Part shown: positions 4,547-47,675 of the stretch, in pieces | How the letters are laid out: each line of letters begins with the position of its first letter | How positions within the stretch are numbered: position 1 is the stretch's first letter | Virus record (IMG/VR): IMGVR_UViG_3300008108_000011 | Span: 128,733 to 192,732 of that record | Source of the DNA: a virus | Reading direction: 5' to 3' (one strand) | Length of the DNA: 64,000 nucleotides | Program-made: the position numbers and the translations under genes | The notes under the pieces: generated by a model | What the model was told of the DNA's origin: nothing | Seen by the model: the letters and a program-made list of their open reading frames with translations, nothing else | Database searches by the model: none

Positions 4547-5217
4547 TGGCGATTGGATATGGGAATGTATTGCCAGGTTTAGATAATATTGTTCTTTGTG
4601 TTGATGCTGGAAACCCCAAAATATATGTTGCTGGTAATACAACATACACTTTAAATAATGGATTGCAACCTCCATCAAACGGATATTTTACTTTTGATGG
4701 ATCTGATGATAGTATTAGTGTTCAAACTGTATATTTAAACACTCCCTACACAGGAAAAACCATAATTGTTGCAGCCTGGATGGATTCTGATGTTGTTTTT
4801 ACAACAAGTTATTATAGAGCTATGATTGGTGGTGTTGGTGATAGGAATGCAAATTTTTACATTAGAACTAGAGGACCAAATCCAAATGATTATGATTTAC
4901 ATTTCAGCACGGGACCATCTGGAGCATATTATGGAACTTTGAGTTCTGGAATCACTTTAAATACCCAACAGTGGTATATTTTTGCAGTTACGCAATCTTC
5001 ACTAGATGGTGCTCATAATTATTATATGAATGGATCTCTGATATCAACCAATCCTTCCACTTGGTATTCTTATGGTCAAAACTCCACAGAATACTTGGGT
5101 AGAGCTGATAATTTCTGGAAGGGAAGAATTGGTTATTGGTATGTTTATAATAAATCTTTTACCGCAGAAGAAATAAAAAGACATTTTGATTTAACCAAAG
5201 GGAGGTTCGGAATCTAA
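4546..5217 (+). CDS. LamG/concanavalin A-like lectin domain protein (fibre-associated), paralogue 1
   Basis: TGATG overlap with the fibre stop. FTFDGSDD, W/Y-rich beta sandwich, C-terminal YNKSFTAEEIKRHF...GRFGI. Confidence 0.7.
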   Translation: MAIGYGNVLPGLDNIVLCVDAGNPKIYVAGNTTYTLNNGLQPPSNGYFTFDGSDDSISVQTVYLNTPYTGKTIIVAAWMDSDVVFTTSYYRAMIGGVGDRNANFYIRTRGPNPNDYDLHFSTGPSGAYYGTLSSGITLNTQQWYIFAVTQSSLDGAHNYYMNGSLISTNPSTWYSYGQNSTEYLGRADNFWKGRIGYWYVYNKSFTAEEIKRHFDLTKGRFGI

Positions 5218-5987
5218 TGGCACTAGGACATTCTCCCTCTATTGTAGTTGATAGCAGTTTGTATAGTTGGTTTGATTTTACTAATACAAATTCATATGTA
5301 GCACAAAATAATCAAGCAACAATTTATAGTTTATTAAATAATGGATATAATTGGAGCACCGCTAATTTTTCTGGCACAGTAAATACCACAACATACGGAA
5401 CAATAGCAAAAGGATTACTATTTGATGGTAATGCTCAAATGCTTACCCAAAATGGTGGTAACAGTTATTATTATGGATGGGATCCAACTGGAACATATGG
5501 CACACCAACATTAACAAATGAAATGTGGGTATATCCCTACGAGGGAAATGGTGTTCTTTTTACGCGACCTTGGAATGGATCTGGTAGATATAATGTTTGG
5601 GTGTTTCCTGGAAGTTTTTATATTGCTTCTGGTGGTAGTAGTTCATCACAACCTTCATCGCAAATTAATTATCCAGTAGATTTATCATCATTTGGCAAAC
5701 CAGTTCATATAGTATGTTGGGCAAATCAAACTCAAATGGGGTATTATATTAACGGAGGTCAATATTCTGGTTCCCAAAACCATGGTATAACTGGTGGTGG
5801 TGATTACTATGGGAATGGTATTGGCGCTGGTTATATGACTTTATATCCATATGGTCAAGGGTGGAGTGGTAATACTGGGTTTAGTATTAACGGTGTTTTA
5901 TATCAAGCAAGAGTTTATAATAGAGTATTAACATCAAGTGAAGTTCAGGGAAATTTTGCAGCACACGCAGCGAGGTATGGATACTAA
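5217..5987 (+). CDS. LamG/concanavalin A-like lectin domain protein, paralogue 2
   Basis: TAATG coupling. LLFDGN motif, C-terminal YNRVLTSSEVQGNF...RYGY. Confidence 0.7.
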   Translation: MALGHSPSIVVDSSLYSWFDFTNTNSYVAQNNQATIYSLLNNGYNWSTANFSGTVNTTTYGTIAKGLLFDGNAQMLTQNGGNSYYYGWDPTGTYGTPTLTNEMWVYPYEGNGVLFTRPWNGSGRYNVWVFPGSFYIASGGSSSSQPSSQINYPVDLSSFGKPVHIVCWANQTQMGYYINGGQYSGSQNHGITGGGDYYGNGIGAGYMTLYPYGQGWSGNTGFSINGVLYQARVYNRVLTSSEVQGNFAAHAARYGY

Positions 5988-6715
5988 TGGCAGTTTACGC
6001 AGGTCCTGATTTAATTGAAGACGGATTAATTTTTTGCATAGATCCAGGAAATTCTAAGAGTTGGAATGGTTCTTCTTTATTGGATATAGCAGGTAATAGA
6101 ACATTATCATTAGTAAATACTTCTGGAACTGCAATATCATATTCGCCAAGCAACGGAGGAATATTAAAATTTAATAATGGGTCAAATTATATTCAGTGCC
6201 CTTCTGACAGCGATTTGAAATTAACATCTTCATTTTCTATGTTTATTTGTTATAGATTAAATCAAGCATTTGGCGATCAAAATTTAGCAAATGGTGATAC
6301 TAAATACAGAACTTTATTCGGTAAACCAAATTATAATGAATATGGAATTATTATGGAATGGTATACTGGAAATCCATTATTATTTGATTTTATTGGAACT
6401 GATAATCAAAGAAATCCACTTGGTTTATCTTATACGTTTGGATATTCAACATGGAGTATTGTTGCTTATACTTACAGTGTTTCTAGAGGATTTCAAAAAA
6501 GCTATATGTATAAATCAGATGGAAGTACTTCATTTGTAACAAGAAATACTACTTCTACAGTAAGAACAACAGATGATCCTGTAAGAATAGGAAGTGCTGG
6601 GTCTGGATATCAGATAGATTTAGATATTGGACCAGCAATGATTTACAACAAAGCATTATCAGATGCAGAAGTTCAACAAAATTTTGAAAGACTTCGCGGA
6701 AGATTTGTAATATAA
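5987..6715 (+). CDS. LamG/concanavalin A-like lectin domain protein, paralogue 3
   Basis: TAATG coupling. N-terminal GPDLIEDGLIFCIDPGN, C-terminal YNKALSDAEVQQNF...GRFVI. Confidence 0.7.
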   Translation: MAVYAGPDLIEDGLIFCIDPGNSKSWNGSSLLDIAGNRTLSLVNTSGTAISYSPSNGGILKFNNGSNYIQCPSDSDLKLTSSFSMFICYRLNQAFGDQNLANGDTKYRTLFGKPNYNEYGIIMEWYTGNPLLFDFIGTDNQRNPLGLSYTFGYSTWSIVAYTYSVSRGFQKSYMYKSDGSTSFVTRNTTSTVRTTDDPVRIGSAGSGYQIDLDIGPAMIYNKALSDAEVQQNFERLRGRFVI

Positions 6716-6718
6716 ATA
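6711..6718 (+). promoter_or_regulatory. T4-type late promoter TATAAATA
   Basis: Exact gp55 consensus about 22 nt upstream of the ATG at 6741. Confidence 0.75.
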
Positions 6719-6740: not shown

Positions 6741-8828
6741 ATGGCAAATTCTGATAAGGATATCCTTATAACGCCGAATAAAGGCACTACATCATTACCA
6801 GAAGTTAGTTTTGTCGGTCAAGTAAACTCACCGATAAGACTTCGTGTGCTTGATGATAATACATTATCCTTTGAAGGTTCTGCTGGTCAGTTATTTTCGA
6901 TCAACAATAACTTAACCACTGGAACAATCTTTGCAGTTTCTGATGTTTCTGGTGTTCCTGGATTATCCTATGATGCTGGTGGAGCATTAAAATTAACTCC
7001 TTTCAATGGAGTTACGATGGTTGGTGGAACAACCACAGCAACTTCACCAAAACTAGTAACAGTTCAAAGCAACGCTGGAACAAGATATTCATTCCAAATT
7101 CAAGTCAACTCTGGTATTACAGATGGGCAATATGATGGTATAGGATTTACTCAGGGATCTGGTGGAGCAACTCCTTTAGGTGGTATTCGTTGTGAATATA
7201 GAAGCAGTGGATCTCCAGATTTTGGTTGGTATACCAGAAGCGGTGGTTCCACAGAAAGTATAAAATTAAAACTATGGAACTCTGGAAATCTTTCTATTGG
7301 AACTGCAGATCAAACAGAATATACTCGTTTGAATGTTCTCGGTGGAAATGGTATTACTATTAGAGCTGATAGTTCATCTACCAGTAATAGATACATTTAT
7401 TTCAGACAAGCGCCAAACGACTATGGTTTCCGTATCACGCAAGATGATGCTTCCGTTGGTATGCTTTTCTTCCGAGCAGTTGATGCTGGAAATGACACTA
7501 ACCCATTAATTACTTTAGACAGACCAACACTAAGAGTTGGCATTGGAAATTTTAGCACATCTGCTAGACCAGGATATACTCTTGATGTTAATGGCAATAT
7601 CAACTTCTCTGGTAACTTATACCAAGCAGGTTCAATCTTCAAAACTCTCCCAACCCAAGATGCAACAACTGATGGATCCGTTCTTAGAACTCGTTGGAAT
7701 CCATCTGCATCTACATACGAAGCATATTGGACACATGACCTTGATGCAAACTATCGTCTAGAGAACCCAGATCAGTGGGCATTCCGTTATATCATTAATA
7801 GGGGTTATACAGTTGCTGGATATCAAAATGCTAACCCATGGAGAAACGGTAACAGAACTTCACATCCATCAGACGTAACAATTTCCATTGGGGATGTTAT
7901 TGATTATTCTGCTGCTTATATTGGCGGTTCTCATAATGGAGTAAATCTCTTTGTTTACAACTGTGCTAACTCTTGGTTGCCAGCTTCTGCTTCCACATGT
8001 TCCATGAGCATGATTACAGAGACAAATAGAGGTCTCAACACATCTTGGAATGACACTAGAGCACGTAGTTATTCTGGTGCTTGGCTCGACTTTATGGGTA
8101 ACCAGTGGAGAACAAATGCTGGTAGAAATAGAGCATATATCAGTTCTGGCAATGGCAACACATCCAGACATGATCTGATCACAGAAGCAATGATTGCTGA
8201 AATTGGCGGCACAATTTCATACGTTTCTCACGCGGAAGGTGAATTTTTTGCTTGGCTATCGCAAGGTCAGAACCGATTTGAATTCTCAACAGAAACATTT
8301 ACAGCATGGTCCAGTTATTCACCTGCTCCTGGTTGCGATGGAATTAACAAGCACCAAGCAACACGTATTGGTTTCTTCTATTGTTCGGAAGGTGGTAACA
8401 CAGATAGAAACGTAACTAAGAGAAGAGATACTGATGCCGTTATTTTAAGATCTGGGATTACTAAACCAGAAACTGGTGGTGAGGAGAACCTACATACTGG
8501 TATGAACAAAGGTTATTGTATTTCAAACTATAATTATGCTCAGAACAATAACGCATGGATTTATCAATATTATAATGATGTAATTCGTTTTGCTGATGGC
8601 ACTCTAACGTATCGTAAAGGAATTCCTGGTGCTTCATCAGGAACTGGTCAAGAAGGTGGAGATATGCAAGGTGCTGGTATTCCTCCAAGGTCTTATATGA
8701 CATATGCAGGTGGTCAGCAAGTTGCTCCAGGAACAATGGTTTATGGTGGATCCACTGGTGCTACATTACAAGGTGGTGCCCCATTAACAGATGGTTCTGG
8801 CGCAACAGGTGGAATTGGAACATATTAA
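6741..8828 (+). CDS. Fibre-like virion protein (695 aa) with probable C-terminal beta-propeller-like domain
   Basis: N-terminal MANSDKDILITPN...SFEGSAGQLFSI resembles cyanophage structural proteins. Middle has fibre motifs (YTLDVNGNINFSG). G/S/Y-rich repetitive C-terminal half. Late promoter upstream. Confidence 0.55.
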   Translation: MANSDKDILITPNKGTTSLPEVSFVGQVNSPIRLRVLDDNTLSFEGSAGQLFSINNNLTTGTIFAVSDVSGVPGLSYDAGGALKLTPFNGVTMVGGTTTATSPKLVTVQSNAGTRYSFQIQVNSGITDGQYDGIGFTQGSGGATPLGGIRCEYRSSGSPDFGWYTRSGGSTESIKLKLWNSGNLSIGTADQTEYTRLNVLGGNGITIRADSSSTSNRYIYFRQAPNDYGFRITQDDASVGMLFFRAVDAGNDTNPLITLDRPTLRVGIGNFSTSARPGYTLDVNGNINFSGNLYQAGSIFKTLPTQDATTDGSVLRTRWNPSASTYEAYWTHDLDANYRLENPDQWAFRYIINRGYTVAGYQNANPWRNGNRTSHPSDVTISIGDVIDYSAAYIGGSHNGVNLFVYNCANSWLPASASTCSMSMITETNRGLNTSWNDTRARSYSGAWLDFMGNQWRTNAGRNRAYISSGNGNTSRHDLITEAMIAEIGGTISYVSHAEGEFFAWLSQGQNRFEFSTETFTAWSSYSPAPGCDGINKHQATRIGFFYCSEGGNTDRNVTKRRDTDAVILRSGITKPETGGEENLHTGMNKGYCISNYNYAQNNNAWIYQYYNDVIRFADGTLTYRKGIPGASSGTGQEGGDMQGAGIPPRSYMTYAGGQQVAPGTMVYGGSTGATLQGGAPLTDGSGATGGIGTY

Positions 8829-8841
8829 TAGGAATTAAAAA

Positions 8842-9633
8842 ATGGAAAGAGTTTATTACTTAATAAAAGATACTTCACTATTCTCAATCATATATGATCT
8901 CAGAGTTTTGAGATCTTTGTTGAATTGGTATGCTGTTTCTATGCCAGCATCCGAAGAATTGATGTTCAAAGAAATTGTGAAGGGAAAATATTACCCGTTA
9001 GATCCTATTACTGGATTTAAGGGGTTTAAAACTTTTGCTGATATTAGAGGTCAAATTAAAATAGTTCAGCAAGAAGCAAATGGAGAAGTTGTTGCATTTC
9101 AATCTGAAGGTGTTTTCAATTCCGTAGAAGATGATCCAAAAGCTGGTGTTAATAAAATTGTTCTTGATGTTGATGACGAGAGAAGAAATGCTGTTATAAA
9201 CGCTATGAGGTTGGTAGCAAAAGCAGTTATAGAAGAAGAGTTTGATAAAAAATTTATGGAATTAGATACTTCTTCTAATATGGAATCTTTGTCATTTGAA
9301 CTACAATATGAAGAAGCATTAGCATATCAAAGTAATAAAGATACGGAAGTTCCTTTGTTAACTGCATTAGCTGGTGCTAGAGAAATATCTGTTGAAGAAA
9401 TGGCAGAAAAAATTATTAGTGGGCGTCTAGTATATAAGCAAAAAATTACAGATCTTCTAACAAGAATGACTTGGATAAAAGCACAATTCAAAAATGCCTC
9501 CACAATTAGAGATCTAAATAGATTATACGAAGACTATTTCAGCATTGCAATGCCAGAATCACAAGCTATTGAAGAAGGTAGAGTTGTTGATTTTAAGCGT
9601 GTTGTTCCTGTAGGAATTGGTCTAAGATTTTAA
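8842..9633 (+). CDS. Hypothetical alpha-helical protein (263 aa), possible fibre assembly factor
   Basis: Long co-directional ORF with an AGGA ribosome-binding site; helical, acidic composition. Confidence 0.5.
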   Translation: MERVYYLIKDTSLFSIIYDLRVLRSLLNWYAVSMPASEELMFKEIVKGKYYPLDPITGFKGFKTFADIRGQIKIVQQEANGEVVAFQSEGVFNSVEDDPKAGVNKIVLDVDDERRNAVINAMRLVAKAVIEEEFDKKFMELDTSSNMESLSFELQYEEALAYQSNKDTEVPLLTALAGAREISVEEMAEKIISGRLVYKQKITDLLTRMTWIKAQFKNASTIRDLNRLYEDYFSIAMPESQAIEEGRVVDFKRVVPVGIGLRF

Positions 9634-9651
9634 TCATAAACAGGAATTGTT

Positions 9652-10395
9652 ATGTTAAGTAAAGAGACTATTCTGCAAAATGCAGTGCAGTTTGCTACTG
9701 GTCAAACTGATTATCAAAATGATAATTTTGTGATGAATTCTCACGTTACAAAGTATCGTCAAATTCGCCAAGCACTTTTAGAAATTGAAAATAGATATCA
9801 CGGCATCAGAAAAATTAAACTTGATGTTCGTAGAGACGAAATTAAAATTAAAGCACTTCAACGAGATTTAGAGAAGTGTGAGGATGATCTAGAAGCAGAA
9901 TTAATTCGTATTGATATCGAAGATTTAGAATCTGATAATGATATCCGCAGAAGAAAATTAACTAGACAAGAACAAGAAATAGATGTTTTTGTCAAAAGAG
10001 TTCAAGAAAATGTAGAAAGCGAAGAAGATATTCAAAGATACTTTGATCAAGATCCAGAGGAAGAAAGAAAGTATTGGATTGCTCGCATGGGCAAACAAGC
10101 TGCTATGGATATCCTTTCTTTTGGGAGAATTAGCACAGGCAACTTAGATTCTATTGCCATGCTTCCAGAAGAAGAACAACTTCAAATTCTTTCAATTGGT
10201 TTTCAGTATTCCAATCTTCTTGGTGGTCAGTTAGCAAAAATTGAAGGTAGAACTAGAGAGTATACACAACAACTATTGTCAGATTCAGCAAATCTAAGAT
10301 TACCAACATTTGAAGGTATCGAAGATAATATGGAATTGAAGATGATTAATTCACTTAAGGAGATTGTTGAGCAGAAAAAATTAAAAGGAAATTAA
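9652..10395 (+). CDS. Hypothetical coiled-coil protein (247 aa)
   Basis: Long ORF with heptad-rich middle (LLEIENR...LEKCEDDLEAELIRIDIEDLE) and an AGGA ribosome-binding site. Confidence 0.5.
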   Translation: MLSKETILQNAVQFATGQTDYQNDNFVMNSHVTKYRQIRQALLEIENRYHGIRKIKLDVRRDEIKIKALQRDLEKCEDDLEAELIRIDIEDLESDNDIRRRKLTRQEQEIDVFVKRVQENVESEEDIQRYFDQDPEEERKYWIARMGKQAAMDILSFGRISTGNLDSIAMLPEEEQLQILSIGFQYSNLLGGQLAKIEGRTREYTQQLLSDSANLRLPTFEGIEDNMELKMINSLKEIVEQKKLKGN

Positions 10396-10396
10396 T

Positions 10397-11146
10397 ATGA
10401 ATAATAATTTCTGGGATTATAGTGTAATCGAAAACAAAATTGAATTAAATAGTGTTCATAGTATTTTTTCTATTCCTCTTTTCGAAAGTACTATTATGGT
10501 TTCGAATATTGATGAAATAATGTCTGACTTAACAAACAAATATAACTCATCTGATGGCGAAGAACTTTTGTCTTCAAATGGTTCTGTTCTTTCTCCTCTA
10601 GAAGCAGAAAAGCAGAATAATGTATCAGTCAGAGATTCAATTTCATATTATAGTGAAGATACTTTACACACTCAATCACTTTATAAAGAATTAGTAACTT
10701 CAATTGAATCTATAACAAAAAATATTTTTGATTTGTATGAATATGATTCTATTACCCCACAAGTAGTAACAATGTGGGGGAATGTTCTCGGAAACAAGGG
10801 TTATATACATGCTCACTCACATAGCAATTCTATGTTTTCTGGTGTATGGTATCCAGAAGATCCACCAGAAACAGAAGAAGGTTCCTTATCAAATTATATC
10901 AAATTTATTGATCCAACAAGAATTAAATTCTTTTTCATGCCACAGATAAAGAAAAAAAATCCATTGAATTCTGGAGAAATTTTTATAAAGCCTAGAAAAG
11001 GAATGTGTTTGATTTTTCCATCTTGGTTAGAGCATGATACTATTCCAAATGAAAATCCATATTTAAAAAGATATAGTATTTCATTTAACATTTTCCCCAA
11101 AGGAACTTTGGGATATCCAAATTCATTAAATCGCCTTACGTTATGA
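10397..11146 (+). CDS. 2OG-Fe(II) oxygenase (TIGR02466-like)
   Basis: HSH...SGVWY, FPSWLEH and RYSISFN motifs. Confidence 0.8.
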   Translation: MNNNFWDYSVIENKIELNSVHSIFSIPLFESTIMVSNIDEIMSDLTNKYNSSDGEELLSSNGSVLSPLEAEKQNNVSVRDSISYYSEDTLHTQSLYKELVTSIESITKNIFDLYEYDSITPQVVTMWGNVLGNKGYIHAHSHSNSMFSGVWYPEDPPETEEGSLSNYIKFIDPTRIKFFFMPQIKKKNPLNSGEIFIKPRKGMCLIFPSWLEHDTIPNENPYLKRYSISFNIFPKGTLGYPNSLNRLTL

Positions 11147-11793
11147 GCACTCTTGAAATATTCCCACAAGCTATTGGGAAGTATTCTTTTGATTATGAAA
11201 GTAAAATTAAAATTAAAGATCTTTGTTTTGAGATAATCAAAGAGAACTCTTTTTCAAAAAACAAAGATAGCAATAATTTATATCATTACTGCAATACTAA
11301 CAAAGAAAATTTATTAAATTTAGAGCAGTTTAAATGGTTTGAAGAAAAGATCTCAAGATTTGCTGCCGACTATATTGAAAATATTTTAGGGTATGAGTTA
11401 AAAGATGGTGTGGTAATTACAGACTGCTGGATGAATTTATGTCAAAGTAATGGTGATCAGTTTCTACACAACCACGGTAATTCATTTATTTCGGGAACAT
11501 ACTATGTAAATTTCAACCCAGATGTTCATGGTAAATTAAAATTCCAAAATCAAAATATGATGTCAGGAATGAACTCTGCTCCTTATCTAGAATTAACAAT
11601 TAAAAAGAATACAAAGTATAACTCTGGAGGAGCAATAATGAATTATAATGAAGGTGATGTATTGCTATGGCAATCACATTTAATTCATGGATATAGTGGT
11701 AATAATTCAGACAATCGCATTAGCATCTCATTTAATATTATGCCCAAACATTTTTATAATAACTCATATTCATTTAAGGTAGTTAGAGAATGA
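11143..11793 (+). CDS. 2OG-Fe(II) oxygenase (TIGR02466-like)
   Basis: HNHGNSFISGTYY, WQSHLIH and RISISFN motifs. Confidence 0.8.
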   Translation: MSTLEIFPQAIGKYSFDYESKIKIKDLCFEIIKENSFSKNKDSNNLYHYCNTNKENLLNLEQFKWFEEKISRFAADYIENILGYELKDGVVITDCWMNLCQSNGDQFLHNHGNSFISGTYYVNFNPDVHGKLKFQNQNMMSGMNSAPYLELTIKKNTKYNSGGAIMNYNEGDVLLWQSHLIHGYSGNNSDNRISISFNIMPKHFYNNSYSFKVVRE

Positions 11794-12458
11794 TATTAAT
11801 AGAAAATGATTATCTCGAAAGAGTTTGCCTGATTAATAAAGATGCAAAAATTGAAGAAGTTGTATACGATGGAGTTAAATTTAAGTGTATTAGAAACTTT
11901 CTGAAAAACCCAGAAGAATACATCGAGTTAATTCAGCAATTTCCAGCAACTAGAGATCACACATATTCTCCTGGTTTCAGACAAGACATCCCACCATGGG
12001 CGGCTAAATTTATTACTCTCTATATTCAAGAACATGTAGGTCAATGGAAACCTGCTAGAGTTTCATGTAACATTTACAGTGGTAATATGTTGATGAAAGA
12101 ACATTCAAATTTACCACATTCTGATCCGTTCTATGGTATTTGGAACTTATGGTTAAACAAAAAATGTTTAGGTGGAACTGCTTTTTGGGCACATAAAAAT
12201 AAGTTGCATGTTAGTGAGTTGTCAGAAGATGAATACAATCATCTTTTTGAAAAACCTCTCATGGGATCTGGATATGAAAAGTGGAAAAACTTCAAAGGAG
12301 ATGAAGACTGGAAGATGACATGTATTGCTCCTATGGAGTATAACACGCTTCTATTCTATAATGGAGGATTTTTCCATTCTCCATGGATTCAAGAAAGCTG
12401 GTATTTGGATGAGTATAGATACAGTATGGTTGGCATGGGAGATTTTGAAAATGTTTAG
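11790..12458 (+). CDS. Putative 2OG-Fe(II) oxygenase (DUF6445-like)
   Basis: PHSD (HxD), GGTAFW, YNTLLFYNG..FHS and a terminal R. Confidence 0.65.
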   Translation: MILIENDYLERVCLINKDAKIEEVVYDGVKFKCIRNFLKNPEEYIELIQQFPATRDHTYSPGFRQDIPPWAAKFITLYIQEHVGQWKPARVSCNIYSGNMLMKEHSNLPHSDPFYGIWNLWLNKKCLGGTAFWAHKNKLHVSELSEDEYNHLFEKPLMGSGYEKWKNFKGDEDWKMTCIAPMEYNTLLFYNGGFFHSPWIQESWYLDEYRYSMVGMGDFENV

Positions 12459-14136
12459 TTTACCAATTAATCCAAAGATCGATGAGAACTTTGCTAATAA
12501 TATTCTCATTCCTTTTCTAAAAAAATACAAGGAATACATCTTTGACTTATATTTCACTTGTCGTATGCCTCCCTTTATGCAGGATGCCATGGGTGATGTA
12601 TTTGAAGATGACTTGAGGCAGACAACCTTCAATGCTCTGTATATTTCAAAGCAAACTGGTATTCCTCTGTCTGCTACGTTCAACAATCCGTATGTAAGAC
12701 CAACGCAAGAAAATTTGGATTTGTTTATCAACAACTTCAAATACATCTACGAAGCTGGTGTTAGAACAGTAACTCTTCCCCATACTTCATGGATGCTTAC
12801 AGGTCAAATTCAAAAAGAGATGCCAGAACTTTATGTCAAGAATACTATTCTACATGAAGTATCGAAGGCAAATGATATTGTCTCACTTGCTAAAGCAGGT
12901 TTTCATTACATCAATCTCGATAGAGATTTAATGAGAGATCAAGACCAACTCAGGCGTCTCAAGGAAGCAAAAGATTATTGTGCTTCCATTGGAAAACCAG
13001 TCAAGTTCTCCATGCTTGCTAACGAGGGATGTTGGGGTGGATGCCCTATCATGCCTGAGCATTACCATTATAATAACACAAGAGAAAATCACGAACCACC
13101 ATACTTCGGTAATATTATCAGTCGTGTATCGTGTTCTAAGTGGGAGCAGCAAGATAGCTCAGCAGTTTTGAAGTCAGCAAATTTACCACCTTGGAAAAAG
13201 GATTGGGAAGAGATGTTTGATCTTGGTATTGATGTTTTCAAACTACATGGCAGAGAAAGTGTAATGCGTTTGAAGGAGAGTATGGATATTATTCATCGCT
13301 GGGCGAACGATGAAGAACTTCTATTCCCAGAACTCAATACTTATATCGAAAATAAGAGTTTGAAGGAAAGACCTATCGATATCTGGCGCGAGAAGATCAA
13401 AACTTGTAAGTTTGATTGTTGGGATTGTAACTACTGCGAGGCAGTAATTGACGCCCATCACAAAAAGCAAGATAGAGTTCTACACCCACTCGTTCAACTT
13501 ACCCTCGATGCTATTGACAAATCAGCAACTGGCGATACAAAATTCAATCCACAAGGATTCAATATCGAAGGATTATCTTCTGATAGAGTTCGTCATTTCC
13601 TCAACCACCTCTGCTCAGATTCTAAGAATACCTACTTAGAGATTGGTTGCTATACTGGTAGCACATATTTCGCTGCTATCATGGGAAATGATATCATGTC
13701 GTATGCTGTGGATAATTTTGCTGCCCCCATTGCTCCTGCCAGAGATGATATTGAATGGAAGGGGTGTGAGAATCCAAAAGCAGAATTGGCAAGAAACAAC
13801 ATCTTGTTTGGCAGTTTAAAATCTGTTATAATAGACACAGATGCTAGGCAACTCAATGCTTCGCATTTTTCCAAAAAACCCAACATCATATTCTATGATG
13901 GAGAGCACGATGAACAGCAAATAGATTGTTTGAATACTTTATTACCAAATTTACAAAATACTTTTATATTGGTAGTAGATGATGCAAACTTTGACGGAGT
14001 TGTTCGGGGAACCGAAAAATTTGTAGGTATAAATAATCTACGAATACTATTTGAAAGGCAAATAATTACGCCTCAAATAGAAGACGCCACAAGTTGGTGG
14101 AATGGATTACACATTTTAGTTCTATCAAAACCCTGA
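12451..14136 (+). CDS. U32-family (UbiU/V, RlhA, TrhP-like Fe-S) domain fused to class I SAM-dependent methyltransferase
   Basis: Likely start is the ATG at 12451 (GGAGA ribosome-binding site, overlapping the upstream stop), not 12325. N-terminal domain has INLDRDL, LANEGCWGGCP, VSC, FKLHGRE and CKFDCWDCNYC. C-terminal domain has YLEIGCYTGST, FYDGEH and VVDD. Confidence 0.7.
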   Translation: MFSLPINPKIDENFANNILIPFLKKYKEYIFDLYFTCRMPPFMQDAMGDVFEDDLRQTTFNALYISKQTGIPLSATFNNPYVRPTQENLDLFINNFKYIYEAGVRTVTLPHTSWMLTGQIQKEMPELYVKNTILHEVSKANDIVSLAKAGFHYINLDRDLMRDQDQLRRLKEAKDYCASIGKPVKFSMLANEGCWGGCPIMPEHYHYNNTRENHEPPYFGNIISRVSCSKWEQQDSSAVLKSANLPPWKKDWEEMFDLGIDVFKLHGRESVMRLKESMDIIHRWANDEELLFPELNTYIENKSLKERPIDIWREKIKTCKFDCWDCNYCEAVIDAHHKKQDRVLHPLVQLTLDAIDKSATGDTKFNPQGFNIEGLSSDRVRHFLNHLCSDSKNTYLEIGCYTGSTYFAAIMGNDIMSYAVDNFAAPIAPARDDIEWKGCENPKAELARNNILFGSLKSVIIDTDARQLNASHFSKKPNIIFYDGEHDEQQIDCLNTLLPNLQNTFILVVDDANFDGVVRGTEKFVGINNLRILFERQIITPQIEDATSWWNGLHILVLSKP

Positions 14137-14143
14137 GGATACT

Positions 14144-14338
14144 ATGGATACAACACAACTTAAAGAAAACTTCACCACTCAACTTACTACTGTTGATGGT
14201 CAAATTGCGAAACTAGAAGAAGAACTAGCAAAAGCAAAAGAATATCGCCTCAAGCTACAAGGTGGATTAGAGACTCTAGACCTTCTTAATCCCCCCACAG
14301 AAGAAGAAACAGCAACGGAAGAAGTAGCAGCAGAATGA
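14144..14338 (+). CDS. Small coiled-coil protein (64 aa)
   Basis: GAGGA ribosome-binding site; heptad pattern IAKLEEELAKAKEYRLKLQGGLETL. Confidence 0.6.
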   Translation: MDTTQLKENFTTQLTTVDGQIAKLEEELAKAKEYRLKLQGGLETLDLLNPPTEEETATEEVAAE

Positions 14339-14342
14339 TTTC

Positions 14343-14837
14343 ATGACTTATGAAATCATTGATGATTATTTGCCACCAGTTGTTCATCAAAATTTATACA
14401 ATTTTTTGATGAACAACATGTTTCCGTGGCAATTTGTTAATGCAGTAAATAGCGAAGATGAAGATAAAAATTTTGTAAATAATTTTTATTTTATCCATCT
14501 TTTCTATGGAATGCACAAACCAACCAGCGAACATTTTGAATTGGTAGTTCCTTTACTAAACAAATTAAATCCAAAAGCTTTAATGAGAATAAAGGGTAAT
14601 CTTTATACTAGAACAGAAAATTTGGTTCATCACTCTCAACATTCCGACTATAAATTTAAACATAAAGCAGCAATATATTATGTCAATGATAATGATGGTT
14701 ACACCATTCTTCACGATGGAACCAAAATAGAAAGTGTTGCTAATAGAATGTTATTGTTCGATGCTTCAAGATTACACAATTCAACAAACTGCACCAACAC
14801 AAAAGTTCGCTGCAATATAAACTTCAATTATTTTTAA
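14343..14837 (+). CDS. 2OG-Fe(II) oxygenase (prolyl-hydroxylase-like)
   Basis: HSD (HxD), YYVN..DGYT, ANRMLLFD...LH and RCNINFNY motifs. Confidence 0.8.
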   Translation: MTYEIIDDYLPPVVHQNLYNFLMNNMFPWQFVNAVNSEDEDKNFVNNFYFIHLFYGMHKPTSEHFELVVPLLNKLNPKALMRIKGNLYTRTENLVHHSQHSDYKFKHKAAIYYVNDNDGYTILHDGTKIESVANRMLLFDASRLHNSTNCTNTKVRCNINFNYF

Positions 14838-44147: not shown

Positions 44148-46640
44148 ATGAAGTTTTATACGAACATTGAACAGGCGGGGAATCGCATCCTCGTTCGTGG
44201 TTATGAGAAAGGTGAGCGAGTTCAGTATCGTGTAGATTATCAACCTAAACTGTACATCCCTTGCAATAAGCAAACGGATCATAAGAGCCTTGATGGGCGG
44301 TATCTTAAAGAGATCCGCCCTGGTTCTATTAATGATTGTCGCCAATATATCAATCAGTATGATGGTGTGGAGGGATTTGAAATTCATGGAAATACTAGAT
44401 ACTTGTATCAGTATATCAACGAAGCATATCCCGATGACGAAATTCGCTTCGACTCTTCTCTCATTCGCACATTTACTCTGGATATTGAAACTGGAGCAGA
44501 GAATGGTTTCCCTGATATTGAATCAGCAGACCAAGAGATTCTGCTTATTTCTCTCCGTGATTCTTTTACAAACAGGATCACTGTCTGGGGATCAAAGAGT
44601 TTCAAGAATGAAGACCGACAGGTTGATTACATCCATTGTAACGATGAGACGAAACTCCTTTCGTGCTTCCTCAAATGGTGGCAGGAGAATACCCCCGACG
44701 TAATTACTGGTTGGAACGTTCAGCTATTCGATATGCCATACATCTGCCGACGTATGGATCGAGTGCTTGGGGAAGATCATACTAAACTTTTGTCGCCTTG
44801 GAAACTAATCTCATCGCGTGAGATTTTCATTAAAGGTCGCAAACAGATTGCATATGATATTCCTGGCATTGCCACGTTGGATTACCTTGAACTCTACAAG
44901 AAGTTTACATACACCAATCAAGAATCTTATCGTCTTGATCATATTGCTTTTGTAGAACTGGAAGAAAAGAAGCTCGACCACTCTGAGTTTGATACCTTCA
45001 AGGAGTTCTATACTAAAGACTGGAACAAGTTTGTGTTGTATAACATCCACGACGTTCGACTTGTTGATCGACTAGATGACAAGATGAAGTTGCTGGAACT
45101 TGCGTTCACTATGGCATATGACGCCAAAGTAAACTACGAAGATGTTTACTCTCAGGTTCGCATGTGGGATAACATCATCTTCATCTATCTGGCAAAGATG
45201 GGTGTTGTCATTCCTCCTAAGAAAGATAGCGTGAAGGATGCTAAGTATGCTGGTGCATATGTTAAAGAACCTGTGCCTGGCATGTATGATTGGATTGTGA
45301 ACTTTGACCTTAACTCACTGTATCCACACCTCATCATGCAGTATAACCTGTCACCTGAGACCCTCCTGCCACGCCGTAGCAGCGTCAACGTAGACATGCT
45401 TCTGGAGAAGCAGTTCGATACCAGCGACCTCGTAGGGGAGACCCTGTGCGCCAATGGCACCCATTACACAACCAAGTTTCAGGGGTTCCTCCCCAAGCTG
45501 ATGGAGAAGATTTATGAAGACCGCACCATTTACAAAAAGAAGATGATTGCTGCCAAGCAGCAATATGAAAAGACTCCAACGATTGAGTTGAAGAAAGAGA
45601 TTGCCCGCTGTAATAACATTCAGATGGCGCGTAAGATTCAACTCAACTCTGCCTATGGTGCTATCGGTAACGAGCACTTCCGTTATTATAAACTTGAAAT
45701 CGCTGAGGCAATTACTCTTTCTGGTCAGCTATCTATTCGCTGGATTGAGAAGAAGATGAATGCCTATCTTAATAAAGTTCTAAAGACACAGGATGTTGAT
45801 TATGTTATTGCTTCAGATACTGATTCTATGTATCTTAATCTGGGTCCTCTGGTTGAGACTGTATACAAGGGAAGAGAGAAAACTGCTGAGAGCATTGTTA
45901 CGTTCCTTGATAAGGTCGCTTCGCTGGAACTTGAGAAGTTTATTGAAAGTTCTTATCAAGAACTGGCCGACTACCTCAAAGCATACGACCAGAAAATGAA
46001 GATGAAGCGTGAGAACATTGCTGAGCGTGGTTTTTGGACTGCAAAGAAACGCTATGTTCTTAACGTTTGGGATAGCGAAGGTGTGCGTTATGCTAAACCG
46101 AAGATGAAAATCTGTGGTATGGAAACTGCACGTTCTTCCACTCCTGCTTACTACCGCGATAAACTAGAGCAGGCATATCGTATCATCGTAACCAAAACGA
46201 ATGAAGATGTTCTTGACTTCATTAATGAAATCAAGGAAGACACTAAGAAGCAAAATTATCTCAACATTGCATTCCCTCGCGGGTGTAATGGTCTGAAGAA
46301 GTATCGTAGTGCTGCTGACATTTATCAGAAGGGCACACCAATTCAAGTGCGTGGTGCGTTGCTCTATAACTATTACATTCGTAAAAACAATTTGGAGCAC
46401 AAGTATCCAATCATTCAGGAAGGTGAGAAGATTAAGTTCATCTATCTGAAGACACCAAATCCTATCCGCGAGAATGTTATTTCGTTCTTTCAACAACTGC
46501 CGAAGGAATTGAACCTTGACAAATACATTGACTACACGCTACAATTTGAGAAGAGTTTCTTTGAACCGCTCAAGAACGTGCTAGAATGCATTGGATGGCA
46601 AGCGGAACGTAAAGGCAGTTTAACCAGTTTTTTTAGTTGA
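44148..46640 (+). CDS. gp43: Family B DNA polymerase gp43
   Basis: DIET exonuclease motif, FDLNSLYP, KIQLNSAYG and SDTDS; unsplit, no intein. Confidence 0.99.
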   Translation: MKFYTNIEQAGNRILVRGYEKGERVQYRVDYQPKLYIPCNKQTDHKSLDGRYLKEIRPGSINDCRQYINQYDGVEGFEIHGNTRYLYQYINEAYPDDEIRFDSSLIRTFTLDIETGAENGFPDIESADQEILLISLRDSFTNRITVWGSKSFKNEDRQVDYIHCNDETKLLSCFLKWWQENTPDVITGWNVQLFDMPYICRRMDRVLGEDHTKLLSPWKLISSREIFIKGRKQIAYDIPGIATLDYLELYKKFTYTNQESYRLDHIAFVELEEKKLDHSEFDTFKEFYTKDWNKFVLYNIHDVRLVDRLDDKMKLLELAFTMAYDAKVNYEDVYSQVRMWDNIIFIYLAKMGVVIPPKKDSVKDAKYAGAYVKEPVPGMYDWIVNFDLNSLYPHLIMQYNLSPETLLPRRSSVNVDMLLEKQFDTSDLVGETLCANGTHYTTKFQGFLPKLMEKIYEDRTIYKKKMIAAKQQYEKTPTIELKKEIARCNNIQMARKIQLNSAYGAIGNEHFRYYKLEIAEAITLSGQLSIRWIEKKMNAYLNKVLKTQDVDYVIASDTDSMYLNLGPLVETVYKGREKTAESIVTFLDKVASLELEKFIESSYQELADYLKAYDQKMKMKRENIAERGFWTAKKRYVLNVWDSEGVRYAKPKMKICGMETARSSTPAYYRDKLEQAYRIIVTKTNEDVLDFINEIKEDTKKQNYLNIAFPRGCNGLKKYRSAADIYQKGTPIQVRGALLYNYYIRKNNLEHKYPIIQEGEKIKFIYLKTPNPIRENVISFFQQLPKELNLDKYIDYTLQFEKSFFEPLKNVLECIGWQAERKGSLTSFFS

Positions 46641-46646
46641 GGTATT

Positions 46647-47675
46647 ATGAGTTTCCTACAATCTGTTATTAAGGAGTTAGATAATGAGTTTGCAAGTGTG
46701 GCGGATGACGGAATCGCAACGGGCGATTGCGACGGTTTTGTTGATACAGGGAGCTATATTCTCAATGCTCTCATTAGCGGGAGCATCTATGGGGGGTTAC
46801 CCTCCAACAAAATCACCGCGCTTGCTGGAGAATCCTCTACTGGTAAAACATTCTTTGCCCTCTCTATCGTCAAACATTTCTTAAATAGTAATCCTGAAGC
46901 ACAGGTAATTTATTTTGAAACGGAATCTGCTGTCTCTAAAGACATGATGGTTTCGCGTGGGATCGATGTTAAACGTGTAGGTTTGGTTCCTGTTACTACT
47001 GTTCAAGAGTTTCGCACTCAGTCTATCAAAGTTGTAGATGAGTATATGAAACTTAAGAAAGAGGATAGACCTCCGCTGCTTTTTGTGCTAGACTCTTTGG
47101 GGATGCTCTCCACCACGAAGGAGATTGACGATGCCACTGCTGGCAAGGAGACACGCGATATGACTCGCGCCCAGGTTATTAAATCGATCTTTAGGATTTT
47201 GTCACTGAAACTTGGGCAAGCTAGTATTCCTCTAATCGTTACCAACCATACATATGAAGTGGTTGGTGCCTATGTGCCAACTAAAGAGATGGGTGGTGGC
47301 ACTGGTCTGAAGTATGCAGCGTCAACTATTCTCTTCCTGTCTAAGAAGAAAGAGAAAGATGGCACTGAAGTTGTAGGTAACATTATTAAAGTGAAGGCAC
47401 AGAAGTCTCGCTTTACCAAAGAAAACTCAGATATCGAGACGAGGTTATTCTATGACGCACGGGGATTGGATAAGTATTATGGATTACTGGAGTTGGGTGA
47501 GAAATACGGAGTATTCCAACGTAAGGGGAATCGCGTGGTTGTTGGGGAATCTTCCGTTTATCCTTCTGTTATCCTTGCCGATCCTGAGAAGTATTTCACG
47601 CCAGAGATAATGCAAGCTTTAGATGAATGTGCCTGTAAAGAGTTTCTATATGGAGTAGTGGATGGAGAGAATTGA
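46647..47675 (+). CDS. uvsX: RecA-like recombinase UvsX
   Basis: [20 protein letters not shown] and MGGG.GL.Y motifs. Confidence 0.97.

What the first reader, a model, noticed from the sequence alone, without database searches (positions are those of the whole stretch)
12451..14136. Phage-encoded U32 Fe-S hydroxylase-like domain fused to a SAM methyltransferase
Seen in sequence: the N-terminal ~330 aa carry NEGCWGGCP, a further VSC and FKLHGRE (compare the U32 LKIEGR), plus an extra Cys cluster CKFDCWDCNYC. The C-terminal ~200 aa carry the class I methyltransferase motifs LEIGCYTGST, FYDGEH and VVDD. Established: TrhP hydroxylates tRNA U34 to ho5U, which is then methylated to mo5U by a separate methyltransferase (TrmR) in Bacillus. 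Inference: this fusion could be a one-polypeptide hydroxylate-then-methylate enzyme, which I do not recognise as characterised in phages.
Basis: partly seen in the sequence, partly recalled or inferred. Interest (0 to 1): 0.72.

Follow-up and report, generated by a model that had tools for sequence, protein, structure and literature searches.

The report
Phage U32-like iron-sulfur enzyme fused to O-methyltransferase
A late gene of a marine T4-like cyanophage joins a very distant, cysteine-rich relative of the oxygen-independent 'U32' iron-sulfur hydroxylases to a catechol/TrmR-type O-methyltransferase; it always travels with a small partner protein of unknown function, and its substrate is unknown.

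Summary

- **N domain (residues 1-~340).** It folds confidently as an eight-stranded TIM barrel. Its best solved match is the U32 protein Mk0906 (Z 16.7; next fold 12.7). No Pfam U32 match is found, and profile-profile similarity is only weak. Seven cysteines are invariant in 55 homologues, but their spacing is not the canonical U32 motif.
- **C domain.** It is a class I, COMT/TrmR-like O-methyltransferase with conserved SAM-binding and metal-binding residues.
- **Domain coupling.** Split versions (U32-like gene followed by a separate methyltransferase gene) exist, so the two halves work together.
- **New here.** The 247-aa protein at 9652-10395 occurs in 126 of 50,697 phage records, with the same organism and host tallies as the enzyme. 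It sits next to the enzyme even in Ralstonia jumbo phages.
- **Neighbours of relatives.** These include fibre proteins, 2OG oxygenases, a tryptophan-type halogenase, a DUF401 membrane protein, radical SAM/SPASM enzymes (once fused) and, once, a shikimate/prephenate operon.

Hydroxylate-then-O-methylate is the best reading (about 0.4). A tRNA substrate is possible but is not favoured by the gene context.

This scan found the same fusion earlier on other phage genomes.

The parts
12451..14136 (+). Whole gene: 561-aa fusion of a U32-like Fe-S barrel and an O-methyltransferase (PHROG 1458, function unknown)
12451..13395 (+). Residues 1-315: eight-stranded (beta/alpha) TIM barrel, distant U32-superfamily domain
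   Evidence: AF2 model with pLDDT 91. 5d88 (U32 Mk0906) is the top hit: Foldseek E 1.2e-6; VIA-align Z 16.7 against 12.7 for the next fold. A U32 cluster in the ESM Atlas gives TM 0.70 over 308 residues. hhalign E 4.5e-4 local and 1.3e-5 global; reversed control 0.25 and 0.99.
13030..13134 (+). Cys set 1: C194-x3-C198 directly after strand 7, plus C228 in the following helix. E192, E203 and H204 nearby are at least 90% conserved. Probable metal or Fe-S site at the catalytic face of the barrel.
13240..13254 (+). K264-x-x-G267-R268 at the end of strand 8; counterpart of the U32 K-I-E-G-R stretch
13405..13437 (+). Cys set 2: C319-x3-C323-x2-C326-x2-C329, invariant; probable second cluster. The spacing contains a CX3CX2C, but it lies at the C-terminal end of the domain.
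13567..14133 (+). Residues 373-561: class I SAM-dependent, cation-dependent-type O-methyltransferase domain
   Evidence: AF2 model with pLDDT 96. VIA-align top hits tie: 8c9v Z 17.0, MeT1 16.8, TrmR 5zw3 16.4. Foldseek top hit is TrmR 8k1f. The only PDB sequence hit is TrmR/YrrM, E 0.065. Motif conservation. Weak Methyltransf_24 hit.
9652..10395 (+). 247-aa helical partner protein (PHROG 1409). It co-occurs with the enzyme in all phage records that carry either gene, and is adjacent to it in most loci.
   Evidence: 126 records with the same organism and host tallies as the enzyme. Present in 64 of 79 metagenome loci. RP12 ORF140 matches at E 7.9e-36 and lies directly upstream of that phage's U32-like gene.
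8842..9633 (+). 263-aa cassette protein (PHROG 10301/1604), usually 1-2 genes upstream of the enzyme
   Evidence: 58 of 79 loci. Only 22 phage records by tblastn, so it is either more divergent or dispensable.
6741..8828 (+). 695-aa fibre-like first gene of the cassette (PHROG 1417)
   Evidence: 60 of 79 loci. Weak Atlas leads to T4 gp9/10-like and fibre proteins. Fold not determined.
6712..6718 (+). ATAAATA late-promoter-like motif just upstream of the cassette. The next one lies at 14029-14035, inside the 3' end of the enzyme gene.
   Evidence: all 19 matches in the window are on the + strand
10397..12458 (+). Three overlapping 2OG-Fe(II) oxygenase-type genes (10397-11146, 11143-11793, and DUF6445 at 11790-12458), inserted between the partner gene and the enzyme in this phage
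   Evidence: In most other loci the partner gene abuts the enzyme gene.
14144..14837 (+). 64-aa coiled-coil ORF (PHROG 580) and a further 2OG-oxygenase-like ORF (14343-14837), followed by neck genes gp13 and gp14

Best explanation
The gene encodes a two-step ring-tailoring enzyme.

**Shown**
- The N-terminal TIM barrel is a very divergent member of the U32 superfamily.
- It carries seven invariant cysteines in two sets of three and four.
- It is fused to, or in other phages followed by, a catechol/TrmR-type SAM O-methyltransferase with an intact SAM site and metal triad.
- It is made from a late operon and always co-occurs with a 247-aa helical partner protein.

**Inferred**
- The cysteines hold two Fe-S clusters, one of them with an open iron at the mouth of the barrel.
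- The barrel installs a hydroxyl group without O2, as TrhP, RlhA and UbiU/UbiV do with prephenate as oxygen donor.
- The fused domain then methylates that hydroxyl, giving a methoxy group.
- The substrate is most likely an aromatic or heteroaromatic ring on something handled by the co-transcribed fibre cassette or partner protein. That would be a side chain or an attached group of a virion fibre protein. A free nucleic acid is less likely.

The general chemistry is better supported than the identity of the substrate.
For: **Fold and family**
- 5d88 (U32) is the top hit in two structure searches and stands 4 Z units above other TIM barrels.
- An ESM Atlas cluster in which 99% of members carry PF01136 aligns over 308 residues.
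- Atlas feature hits go to clusters labelled U32.
- hhalign against 43 proteobacterial U32 proteins gives E 1.3e-5 to 4.5e-4, against 0.25 to 0.99 for the reversed control. It pairs D32/Y34 with U32 D25/Y28, P125 with P109, the D-R-x-L stretch with R-E-L-S, and K264/G267/R268 with K-I-E-G-R.

**Metal sites**
- Seven invariant cysteines.
- U32 hydroxylases are 4Fe-4S enzymes (PMC6747719).

**Methyltransferase**
-.

**Coupling of the two domains**
- Five loci have a separate downstream methyltransferase gene homologous to the C domain, E 1e-28 to 1e-55.
- A distant homologue is followed by a different class I methyltransferase.

**Prephenate link**
- One stand-alone homologue lies directly after a complete shikimate pathway plus chorismate mutase/prephenate dehydratase.
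- Prephenate is the oxygen donor of U32 hydroxylases (PMC10990095 and PMC6599085).

**Cassette and fibre link**
- One late-promoter-like motif at 6712 and none until 14029.
- Homologues of window ORFs 6741, 8842 and 9652 lie upstream in 58-62 of 79 loci.
- The partner has the same phyletic tally as the enzyme.
- Distant phage homologues follow fibre-type genes: Gly_rich_2, DUF4376, Peptidase_S74, Mtd_N, Laminin_G_3.
- Other ring-tailoring enzymes occupy neighbouring slots: 2OG oxygenases and a tryptophan-type halogenase.
- A cellular relative is fused to a radical SAM/SPASM enzyme, a class that mostly modifies peptides.
Against: - No Pfam PF01136 match in this protein, in 55 homologues or anywhere in the phage genome.
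- The cysteine spacing differs from every U32 pattern described.
- The profile-profile probability is only 33-59%.
- No U32 enzyme is known to act on a protein.
- Fe-S binding, hydroxylation and prephenate use are untested.
- The shikimate context is a single contig.
- Conserved synteny among related cyanomyophages may partly be inheritance rather than function.
- In Ralstonia phage RP12 the module is partner + U32-like + DUF401 membrane protein, with no methyltransferase and no adjacent fibre gene.
- The O-methyltransferase fold does not identify a substrate: the top hits are a tie of catechol, sugar and tRNA enzymes.
Confidence: 0.4

Rival explanations
1. RNA reading. The enzyme makes 5-hydroxy-pyrimidine and then 5-methoxy-pyrimidine in RNA. 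An example is ho5U34 to mo5U34 in phage or host tRNAs, which would widen wobble decoding for the AT-rich phage genes.
For: - The domain pair mirrors TrhP (U32) plus TrmR (COMT-like), the only known hydroxylate-then-O-methylate pair that involves a U32 enzyme (PMC6599085).
- TrmR/YrrM is the only PDB sequence hit of the family profile (E 0.065). It is within the top structural tie (Z 16.4) and is the Foldseek top hit.
- JGI labels some members 'O-methyltransferase YrrM'.
- The phage encodes 26 tRNAs, including Val-UAC, Ser-UGA, Pro-UGG, Ala-UGC, Leu-UAG and Thr-UGU, the classical xo5U34 species.
Against: - The gene sits in a late, fibre-linked operon with an obligate non-RNA-type partner.
- Relatives lie in radical SAM, sugar and halogenase contexts; none lies next to tRNA or translation genes.
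- The N domain is far from TrhP and RlhA.
- The methyltransferase hits are ties with catechol and sugar O-methyltransferases.
- Phage tRNA sets are generally rich in UNN tRNAs, so that point does not discriminate.
Confidence: 0.17
2. Small-molecule reading. The enzyme hydroxylates and O-methylates a free aromatic metabolite, for example a quinone, indole or phenol. The DUF401 membrane protein found beside it in some phages moves the substrate or product across the membrane.
For: - A DUF401 (PF04165) multi-pass membrane protein lies 1-3 genes downstream in 22 of 79 loci. It lies directly downstream in Ralstonia phage RP12, a very distant phage.
- Among 50,697 phage records, DUF401 homologues occur in only 12. 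At least 8 of these (S-CAM4, ACG-2014j and the Ralstonia phages) also carry the U32-like gene. S-H25 and metaG-MbCM1 were not checked.
- UbiU/UbiV plus UbiG are a precedent for U32 hydroxylation followed by O-methylation of a lipid-soluble ring (PMC6747719).
- The neighbouring halogenase family includes VirX1, which halogenates free aromatics in vitro (PMC8407142).
- One homologue lies in an aromatic amino-acid operon.
Against: - DUF401 is present in only about a tenth of the phages that carry the enzyme. In this genome it lies about 56 kb away, inside the tRNA array.
- The phage has no scaffold-building genes nearby.
- The universal partner is a soluble helical protein, not a transporter.
Confidence: 0.2
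3. The barrel is not a hydroxylase. It would be a different Fe-S enzyme: a non-canonical radical SAM-like, reductase or dehydratase type that uses a three-Cys cluster with an open iron. It would work alongside radical SAM partners in cellular relatives. The methyltransferase would act on a group that is already present.
For: - Seven, not four, invariant cysteines, which fits a 3+4 arrangement.
- The second set contains a CX3CX2C spacing.
- Radical SAM genes lie within three genes of five of ten stand-alone homologues examined, and one radical SAM/SPASM protein is fused to the domain.
- An Atlas radical SAM cluster aligns at TM 0.70.
- The domain fails the Pfam U32 test.
Against: - No radical SAM structure is among the top 50 PDB matches, whereas U32 is first.
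- There is no PF04055 hit.
- The CX3CX2C lies at the C-terminal end, not after strand 1.
- The repeated pairing with an O-methyltransferase is most simply explained by a newly made hydroxyl.
Confidence: 0.18
4. The N domain is a true peptidase of the old 'U32 collagenase' kind that processes the fibre protein, and the cysteines bind structural zinc.
For: - The family was originally named for reported collagenase activity.
- The gene is linked to fibre genes.
Against: - Characterised U32 proteins are Fe-S hydroxylases (PMC6747719, PMC6599085, PMC10990095).
- The fusion to an O-methyltransferase is unexplained by proteolysis.
- Relatives occur in non-fibre cellular contexts.
Confidence: 0.03

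Closest known systems
TrhP (E. coli YegQ; B. subtilis YrrN/YrrO) with TrmR (YrrM): tRNA ho5U34 to mo5U34
   Same: A U32-type barrel plus a COMT-like, Mg-dependent O-methyltransferase that acts on the new hydroxyl. TrmR is the nearest solved relative of the C domain by sequence (weak) and is within the top structural tie.
   Different: Here the two activities sit on one chain. The barrel fails the Pfam U32 model, has seven invariant cysteines in another spacing and lacks the extra C-terminal part of TrhP. The gene context is a late fibre cassette with an obligate partner, not translation genes.
UbiU/UbiV (with UbiT and UbiG): O2-independent ubiquinone hydroxylation followed by O-methylation
   Same: Fe-S U32 hydroxylases that need a second protein (heterodimer plus accessory factor). 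Their products are O-methylated by a class I methyltransferase. Prephenate is the oxygen donor (PMC6747719, PMC10990095).
   Different: The partner here has no conserved cysteines and shows no U32 or SCP2 similarity. hhalign against UbiU alone is insignificant. There are no quinone genes nearby.
Mk0906 of Methanopyrus kandleri (PDB 5d88), the solved U32 structure
   Same: Best structural match: Z 16.7, rmsd 3.1 A, 223 of 247 residues aligned.
   Different: 10% sequence identity. Mk0906 lacks the C-terminal Cys4 segment and the methyltransferase, and its function is unknown.
RlhA (E. coli YdcP): 23S rRNA ho5C2501 synthase
   Same: U32 family enzyme that hydroxylates C5 of a pyrimidine and depends on prephenate and iron (PMC5727448).
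   Different: RlhA has tandem U32 domains, is recognised by Pfam, has no fused methyltransferase and is not phage-borne.
VirX1-type flavin halogenases of cyanophages
   Same: Another aromatic-ring tailoring enzyme whose natural substrate is unknown. It is found directly beside the fusion in 5 of 79 loci and near a stand-alone homologue.
   Different: Unrelated fold and chemistry. It is a neighbour, not a relative.

Membership tests
Peptidase_U32 / U32 Fe-S hydroxylases (TrhP, RlhA, UbiU, UbiV) | Match to Pfam PF01136 above the gathering score | tested here: not met
   No hit for this protein, for any of 55 homologues at E <= 0.01 or anywhere in the phage genome. The same model finds four genes in E. 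coli.
Peptidase_U32 / U32 Fe-S hydroxylases (TrhP, RlhA, UbiU, UbiV) | TIM-barrel fold closest to solved or predicted U32 structures | tested here: met
   5d88 is the top hit by Foldseek and by VIA-align: Z 16.7 against 12.7 for the next fold. An Atlas U32 cluster gives TM 0.70 over 308 residues.
Peptidase_U32 / U32 Fe-S hydroxylases (TrhP, RlhA, UbiU, UbiV) | Profile-level sequence homology to U32 proteins | tested here: inconclusive
   hhalign gives E 4.5e-4 (local) and 1.3e-5 (global), probability 33-59%. The reversed control gives 0.25 and 0.99. Many members give weak HMM hits at the same K-x-x-G-R stretch.
Peptidase_U32 / U32 Fe-S hydroxylases (TrhP, RlhA, UbiU, UbiV) | Conserved four-cysteine motif (CX6CX15CX3/4C or the UbiU/UbiV variants) that binds one 4Fe-4S cluster | tested here: not met
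   The spacing here is C-x3-C-x29-C plus C-x3-C-x2-C-x2-C, with seven invariant cysteines. The U32 motif is taken from PMC6747719. A cluster-binding role remains plausible.
Peptidase_U32 / U32 Fe-S hydroxylases (TrhP, RlhA, UbiU, UbiV) | K-I-E-G-R stretch on the last barrel strand | tested here: met
   K264, G267 and R268 are at least 90% conserved and align with the U32 stretch.
Peptidase_U32 / U32 Fe-S hydroxylases (TrhP, RlhA, UbiU, UbiV) | Fe-S content and prephenate-dependent, O2-independent hydroxylation | not testable with these tools
   There is only a context hint: one homologue lies behind a shikimate plus chorismate mutase/prephenate dehydratase operon.
Cation-dependent class I O-methyltransferases (COMT, CCoAOMT, TrmR; Methyltransf_3/24) | Rossmann-type class I methyltransferase fold closest to this group | tested here: met
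   Model pLDDT 96. The top VIA-align hits are 8c9v, MeT1, TrmR and SpnH, Z 15.9-17.0. TrmR is the Foldseek top hit.
Cation-dependent class I O-methyltransferases (COMT, CCoAOMT, TrmR; Methyltransf_3/24) | SAM-binding motif I (E-x-G-x3-G) and an acidic residue after strand 2 | tested here: met
   E396, G398, G402 and D420 are 98-99% conserved in 176 sequences.
Cation-dependent class I O-methyltransferases (COMT, CCoAOMT, TrmR; Methyltransf_3/24) | Metal-binding Asp ... Asp-Asn triad after strands 4 and 5 | tested here: met
   D482, D509, D510 and N512 are 98-99% conserved. They align with the I-D and D-N positions of TrmR in the HMMER alignment. Metal binding itself is untested.
Cation-dependent class I O-methyltransferases (COMT, CCoAOMT, TrmR; Methyltransf_3/24) | Pfam Methyltransf_24 above the gathering score | tested here: inconclusive
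   17.2 bits against a cut-off of 26.3 for this protein. About half of the listed homologues carry a precomputed PF13578 hit.
TrmR orthologue (tRNA ho5U34 methyltransferase) | Specific sequence kinship to TrmR and tRNA-binding features | tested here: inconclusive
   It is the only PDB sequence hit, but at E 0.065. Structurally it is tied with catechol and sugar O-methyltransferases. tRNA-binding residues were not examined.
Radical SAM superfamily | PF04055 match with CX3CX2C after the first barrel strand | tested here: not met
   No PF04055 hit. A CX3CX2C spacing exists, but at residues 319-326, after the barrel. No radical SAM structure is in the top 50 matches.

The most novel reading that the evidence does not exclude
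The U32-like enzyme, its obligate 247-aa partner and the fused O-methyltransferase would form a previously unknown, oxygen-independent post-translational tailoring system. It would write methoxy groups onto aromatic residues of phage receptor-binding fibres. It would be interchangeable with halogenases and 2OG oxygenases in the same cassette, so ocean phages would chemically diversify their fibre tips.
Probability: 0.15. Interest if true: 0.9.

Novelty: new variant of a known kind. Interest (0 to 1): 0.62.

Why it matters
The family is abundant. More than 1,700 protein clusters at 90% identity were found. It occurs in 126 isolate phage genomes and in most of 80 sampled aquatic metagenome loci. 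No function is assigned in Pfam, PHROGs or NCBIfam.

If the reading is right, it extends prephenate-type, O2-independent hydroxylation in three directions:
- to viruses of oxygen-evolving hosts;
- to a new cysteine architecture;
- possibly to a new class of substrate.

It also gives a concrete handle on a conserved fibre-linked cassette that includes the still substrate-less VirX1-type halogenases and the many unexplained cyanophage 2OG oxygenases. The partner's matching phyletic tally makes a two-protein experiment straightforward.

Tried and rejected
- **Direct sequence searches of the N domain.** Pfam, NCBIfam and PDB phmmer/hmmsearch gave nothing useful, only weak lysine aminomutase TIM-barrel and designed-TIM hits.
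- **hhalign against a single UbiU sequence.** Insignificant. A 43-sequence U32 profile was needed.
- **Building the U32 profile.** The search for related loci with the four E. coli paralogues failed because no conserved stretch was found. With TrhP alone it returned only near-identical enterobacterial genes. Diversity came from the genome search.
- **Stand-alone methyltransferase relatives.** Only fragments were found.
- **Family in Pseudomonadota.** One weak hit in 401 genomes; that protein has no Pfam family. DUF401 was found in none of 401.
- **Partner as a diverged chorismate mutase.** No support from hhalign against a CM_2/PDT protein (E 0.55) or from PDB searches.
- **Cassette proteins 6741 and 8842.** No PDB relatives.
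- **petF-like ferredoxin beside the enzyme** (a lead from earlier notes). None was found by a Cys-motif scan of 79 loci.
- **Isoelectric points.** They do not discriminate nucleic-acid enzymes.
- **DNA reading.** 5-hydroxycytosine in phage DNA is real, but it is made by a ThyA homologue, not by a U32 protein (PMC13326640). I therefore gave a DNA substrate little weight.
- **Model coordinates.** They are not exposed, so Cys-Cys distances could not be measured.
- **Careful tree.** It did not finish, so only a quick tree was used to pick context samples.


Full report
**1. Observation**

Window 12451-14136 (+) is a single 561-aa ORF whose ATG overlaps the stop of the upstream gene.

The window is part of a 192.7-kb T4-like cyanomyophage genome with terminal repeats. 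The gene lies between fibre-like genes and the neck genes gp13 and gp14. The protein belongs to PHROG 1458, of unknown function. Its N part alone matches PHROG 36869.

Homologues are very common:
- more than 1,700 clusters at 90% identity, almost all 555-580 aa and unnamed;
- 126 isolate phage records: 77 named Synechococcus phage, 38 Cyanophage, 8 Prochlorococcus phage, and 3 Ralstonia jumbo-phage records that carry only the N domain.

**2. N-terminal domain**

Direct sequence searches do not recognise it.

A search of 1.84 billion representative proteins with residues 1-372 found 280 relatives, many of them stand-alone proteins of 330-450 aa. In an alignment of 55 of them, with 25% mean column identity, the only invariant columns are seven cysteines: C194, C198, C228, C319, C323, C326 and C329. 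D32, P125, K130, R158, E192, E203, H204, K264, G267 and R268 are at least 90% conserved. None of the 55 matches Pfam PF01136.

AlphaFold2 on this alignment gives a confident eight-stranded TIM barrel (pLDDT 91.2).

| Structure search | Best U32 match | Comparison |
|---|---|---|
| Foldseek vs PDB | 5d88 (Mk0906), first, E 1.2e-6 | only narrowly ahead of other barrels |
| VIA-align vs 48,161 chains | 5d88, Z 16.7, rmsd 3.1 A, 223 residues | next fold Z 12.7 |
| ESM Atlas by shape | cluster with 99% PF01136 members, TM 0.70 over 308 residues | family's own clusters rank first |

I built a 43-sequence U32 profile from E. coli and 29 other proteobacterial genomes. hhalign gave E 4.5e-4 (local) and 1.3e-5 (global), against 0.25 and 0.99 for a reversed control. 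It paired the family's conserved D32/Y34, P125, D-R-x-L and K-x-x-G-R with U32's D25/Y28, P109, R-E-L-S and K-I-E-G-R.

I conclude that the domain is a genuine but very distant branch of the U32 superfamily. It is not a member of the Pfam family.

The cysteine spacing is C-x3-C-x29-C plus C-x3-C-x2-C-x2-C. This differs from the CX6CX15CX3/4C pattern that binds the single 4Fe-4S cluster of U32 enzymes (PMC6747719). Seven invariant cysteines suggest two metal sites, one of them three-coordinate.

**3. C-terminal domain**

The model (pLDDT 96.2) is a class I methyltransferase.

- The top structural matches are a tie among cation-dependent O-methyltransferases: 8c9v Z 17.0, MeT1 16.8, B. subtilis TrmR 16.4 and SpnH 15.9.
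- Foldseek puts Fusobacterium TrmR first.
- The only PDB sequence hit of the family profile is TrmR/YrrM, at E 0.065.
- In 176 distinct sequences the SAM motif (E396, G398, G402, D420) and a COMT-like metal triad (D482, D509/D510, N512) are 98-99% conserved.

The domain is therefore very probably an active O-methyltransferase. The fold does not identify its substrate.

**4. The two halves work together**

In five metagenome loci a 290-352-aa U32-like gene is followed by a separate 190-217-aa gene homologous to the C domain (E 1e-28 to 1e-55). In three of them the two genes overlap by only 1-4 nt. A distant stand-alone homologue is followed, with overlapping stop and start, by an unrelated class I methyltransferase.

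**5. Context in phages**

The motif ATAAATA occurs 19 times in the window, always on the + strand and often just upstream of genes. One copy lies at 6712, and there is no other until 14029. ORFs 6741 to 14136 abut or overlap. This fits one late operon.

In 80 related metagenome loci, 66 carry the fusion. Homologues of window ORFs 6741-8828, 8842-9633 and 9652-10395 lie just upstream in 60, 58 and 62 loci, including the split forms. The downstream side is variable. The three 2OG-oxygenase-type genes at 10397-12458 are an insertion specific to this lineage.

The key new result concerns the 247-aa protein at 9652-10395. It is found in 126 phage records, with the same organism and host tallies as the enzyme. 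In Ralstonia phage RP12 its homologue (ORF140, E 7.9e-36) lies directly upstream of the U32-like ORF139. It has no conserved cysteine, no Pfam family and no solved relative, and it shows no likeness to chorismate mutase.

Neighbouring slots hold:
- 2OG-Fe(II) oxygenases;
- a tryptophan-type flavin halogenase at position +1 in 5 loci, related to PyrH (E 2e-80) and to cyanophage VirX1 (E 1e-55);
- Mtd_N, Gly_rich_2, Peptidase_S74 and Laminin_G_3 fibre-type proteins;
- a DUF401 multi-pass membrane protein in 22 loci.

DUF401 also directly follows the U32-like gene in RP12. Among 50,697 phage records it occurs in only 12. At least 8 of these also carry the U32-like gene; S-H25 and metaG-MbCM1 were not checked. 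In this genome DUF401 lies elsewhere, inside the tRNA array.

**6. Context of stand-alone relatives outside this phage group**

- One homologue lies directly behind a complete shikimate pathway plus chorismate mutase/prephenate dehydratase, and ahead of a HemN-like radical SAM gene.
- Radical SAM genes lie within three genes of five of the ten homologues examined.
- One 739-aa protein fuses a radical SAM/SPASM module to the domain.
- Others sit among glycosyltransferase, epimerase and carbamoyltransferase genes.

The family is rare in Pseudomonadota: one weak hit in 401 genomes.

**7. Interpretation**

U32 enzymes (TrhP, RlhA, UbiU/UbiV) are O2-independent Fe-S hydroxylases that take oxygen from prephenate (PMC6599085, PMC5727448, PMC6747719, PMC10990095). 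Their products are O-methylated by separate enzymes, TrmR and UbiG.

The best reading is a one-chain hydroxylate-then-O-methylate enzyme (about 0.4). It rests on four observations:
- the distant U32 barrel;
- the invariant cysteines;
- the repeated coupling to an O-methyltransferase;
- the single prephenate-operon context.

The substrate is open. My estimates are:

| Substrate or reading | Basis | Estimate |
|---|---|---|
| Fibre- or partner-linked macromolecule | Late fibre cassette, obligate partner, co-resident ring-tailoring enzymes, SPASM fusion | favoured within the 0.4 above |
| Free aromatic small molecule | DUF401 neighbour | 0.2 |
| tRNA or rRNA | TrmR likeness; 26 phage tRNAs including all six classical xo5U species | 0.17 |
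| Not a hydroxylase | Cysteine count, radical SAM associations | 0.18 |

5-Hydroxycytosine exists in phage DNA but is made by a ThyA homologue (PMC13326640), so a DNA role has little support.

**8. Novelty and earlier findings**

I found no paper on this fusion or on its partner.

This scan had already reported the same fusion on other phage genomes, with the same general conclusion. It had also proposed a fibre-tip tailoring cassette.

- the partner's phyletic tally, which matches that of the enzyme;
- the RP12 three-gene module (partner, U32-like gene, DUF401);
- the split methyltransferase forms;
- the radical SAM/SPASM fusion;
- the shikimate/prephenate context;
- the quantified U32 profile comparison with its control.

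I rate it a new variant of a known kind, with interest 0.62.

Noticed in passing
window 6712-60760 (19 sites, e.g. 6712, 14839, 14854, 17796, 21045, 23326, 25859): ATAAATA occurs 19 times on the + strand and never on the - strand, often within 50 nt upstream of a start codon. The total count is at chance level (18.5 expected), but the strand bias and placement fit T4-type late promoters.
   Followed up: partly
G000:C1:3454-10549 and 46487-47515 (outside the window): The phage encodes 26 tRNAs, 23 of them in one array. A 346-aa DUF401 membrane-protein gene (about 4581-5621) sits inside that array, between tRNA-Ser(GCU) and tRNA-Ser(UGA).
   Followed up: partly
window 14343-14837: This ORF matches PHROG 274, labelled 'DNA endonuclease V' (some GenBank records call it denV). 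Pfam gives only a weak 2OG-FeII_Oxy_3 hit, so the denV label looks doubtful.
   Followed up: no
window 11790-12458: This DUF6445 protein matches PHROG 1644, labelled 'minor coat protein'. It lies in a run of 2OG-oxygenase-type genes, so the structural label may be wrong.
   Followed up: no
L136:754-6008: One metagenome contig carries, in a row, a radical SAM/SPASM gene, a 291-aa gene with no Pfam match, a 295-aa stand-alone U32-like gene and a 739-aa radical SAM/SPASM protein fused to the U32-like domain.
   Followed up: partly
L118:1-8699: DHQ synthase, DHQ dehydratase, shikimate dehydrogenase/kinase, EPSP synthase, chorismate synthase and chorismate mutase/prephenate dehydratase lie on one strand with overlaps. 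They are followed by a U32-like homologue and then a HemN-like radical SAM gene.
   Followed up: partly
L190:6563-8074 and four other loci; L127:3556-5133: A tryptophan-type flavin halogenase lies directly next to the fusion gene or near a stand-alone homologue. It is related to PyrH and to cyanophage VirX1, whose natural substrate is unknown.
   Followed up: partly
L129:5335-8056 (Ralstonia phage RP12 ORF140-ORF138): This jumbo phage of a soil and plant bacterium carries the partner gene, a methyltransferase-less U32-like gene and a DUF401 membrane-protein gene in a row. This is the same trio seen in some cyanophages.
   Followed up: partly
L130:1474-2418 (-): This was the only hit in 401 Pseudomonadota genomes: a 314-aa protein with no Pfam family, weakly matching the barrel profile (E 5.5e-6), next to a di-haem cytochrome c peroxidase gene.
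   Followed up: no
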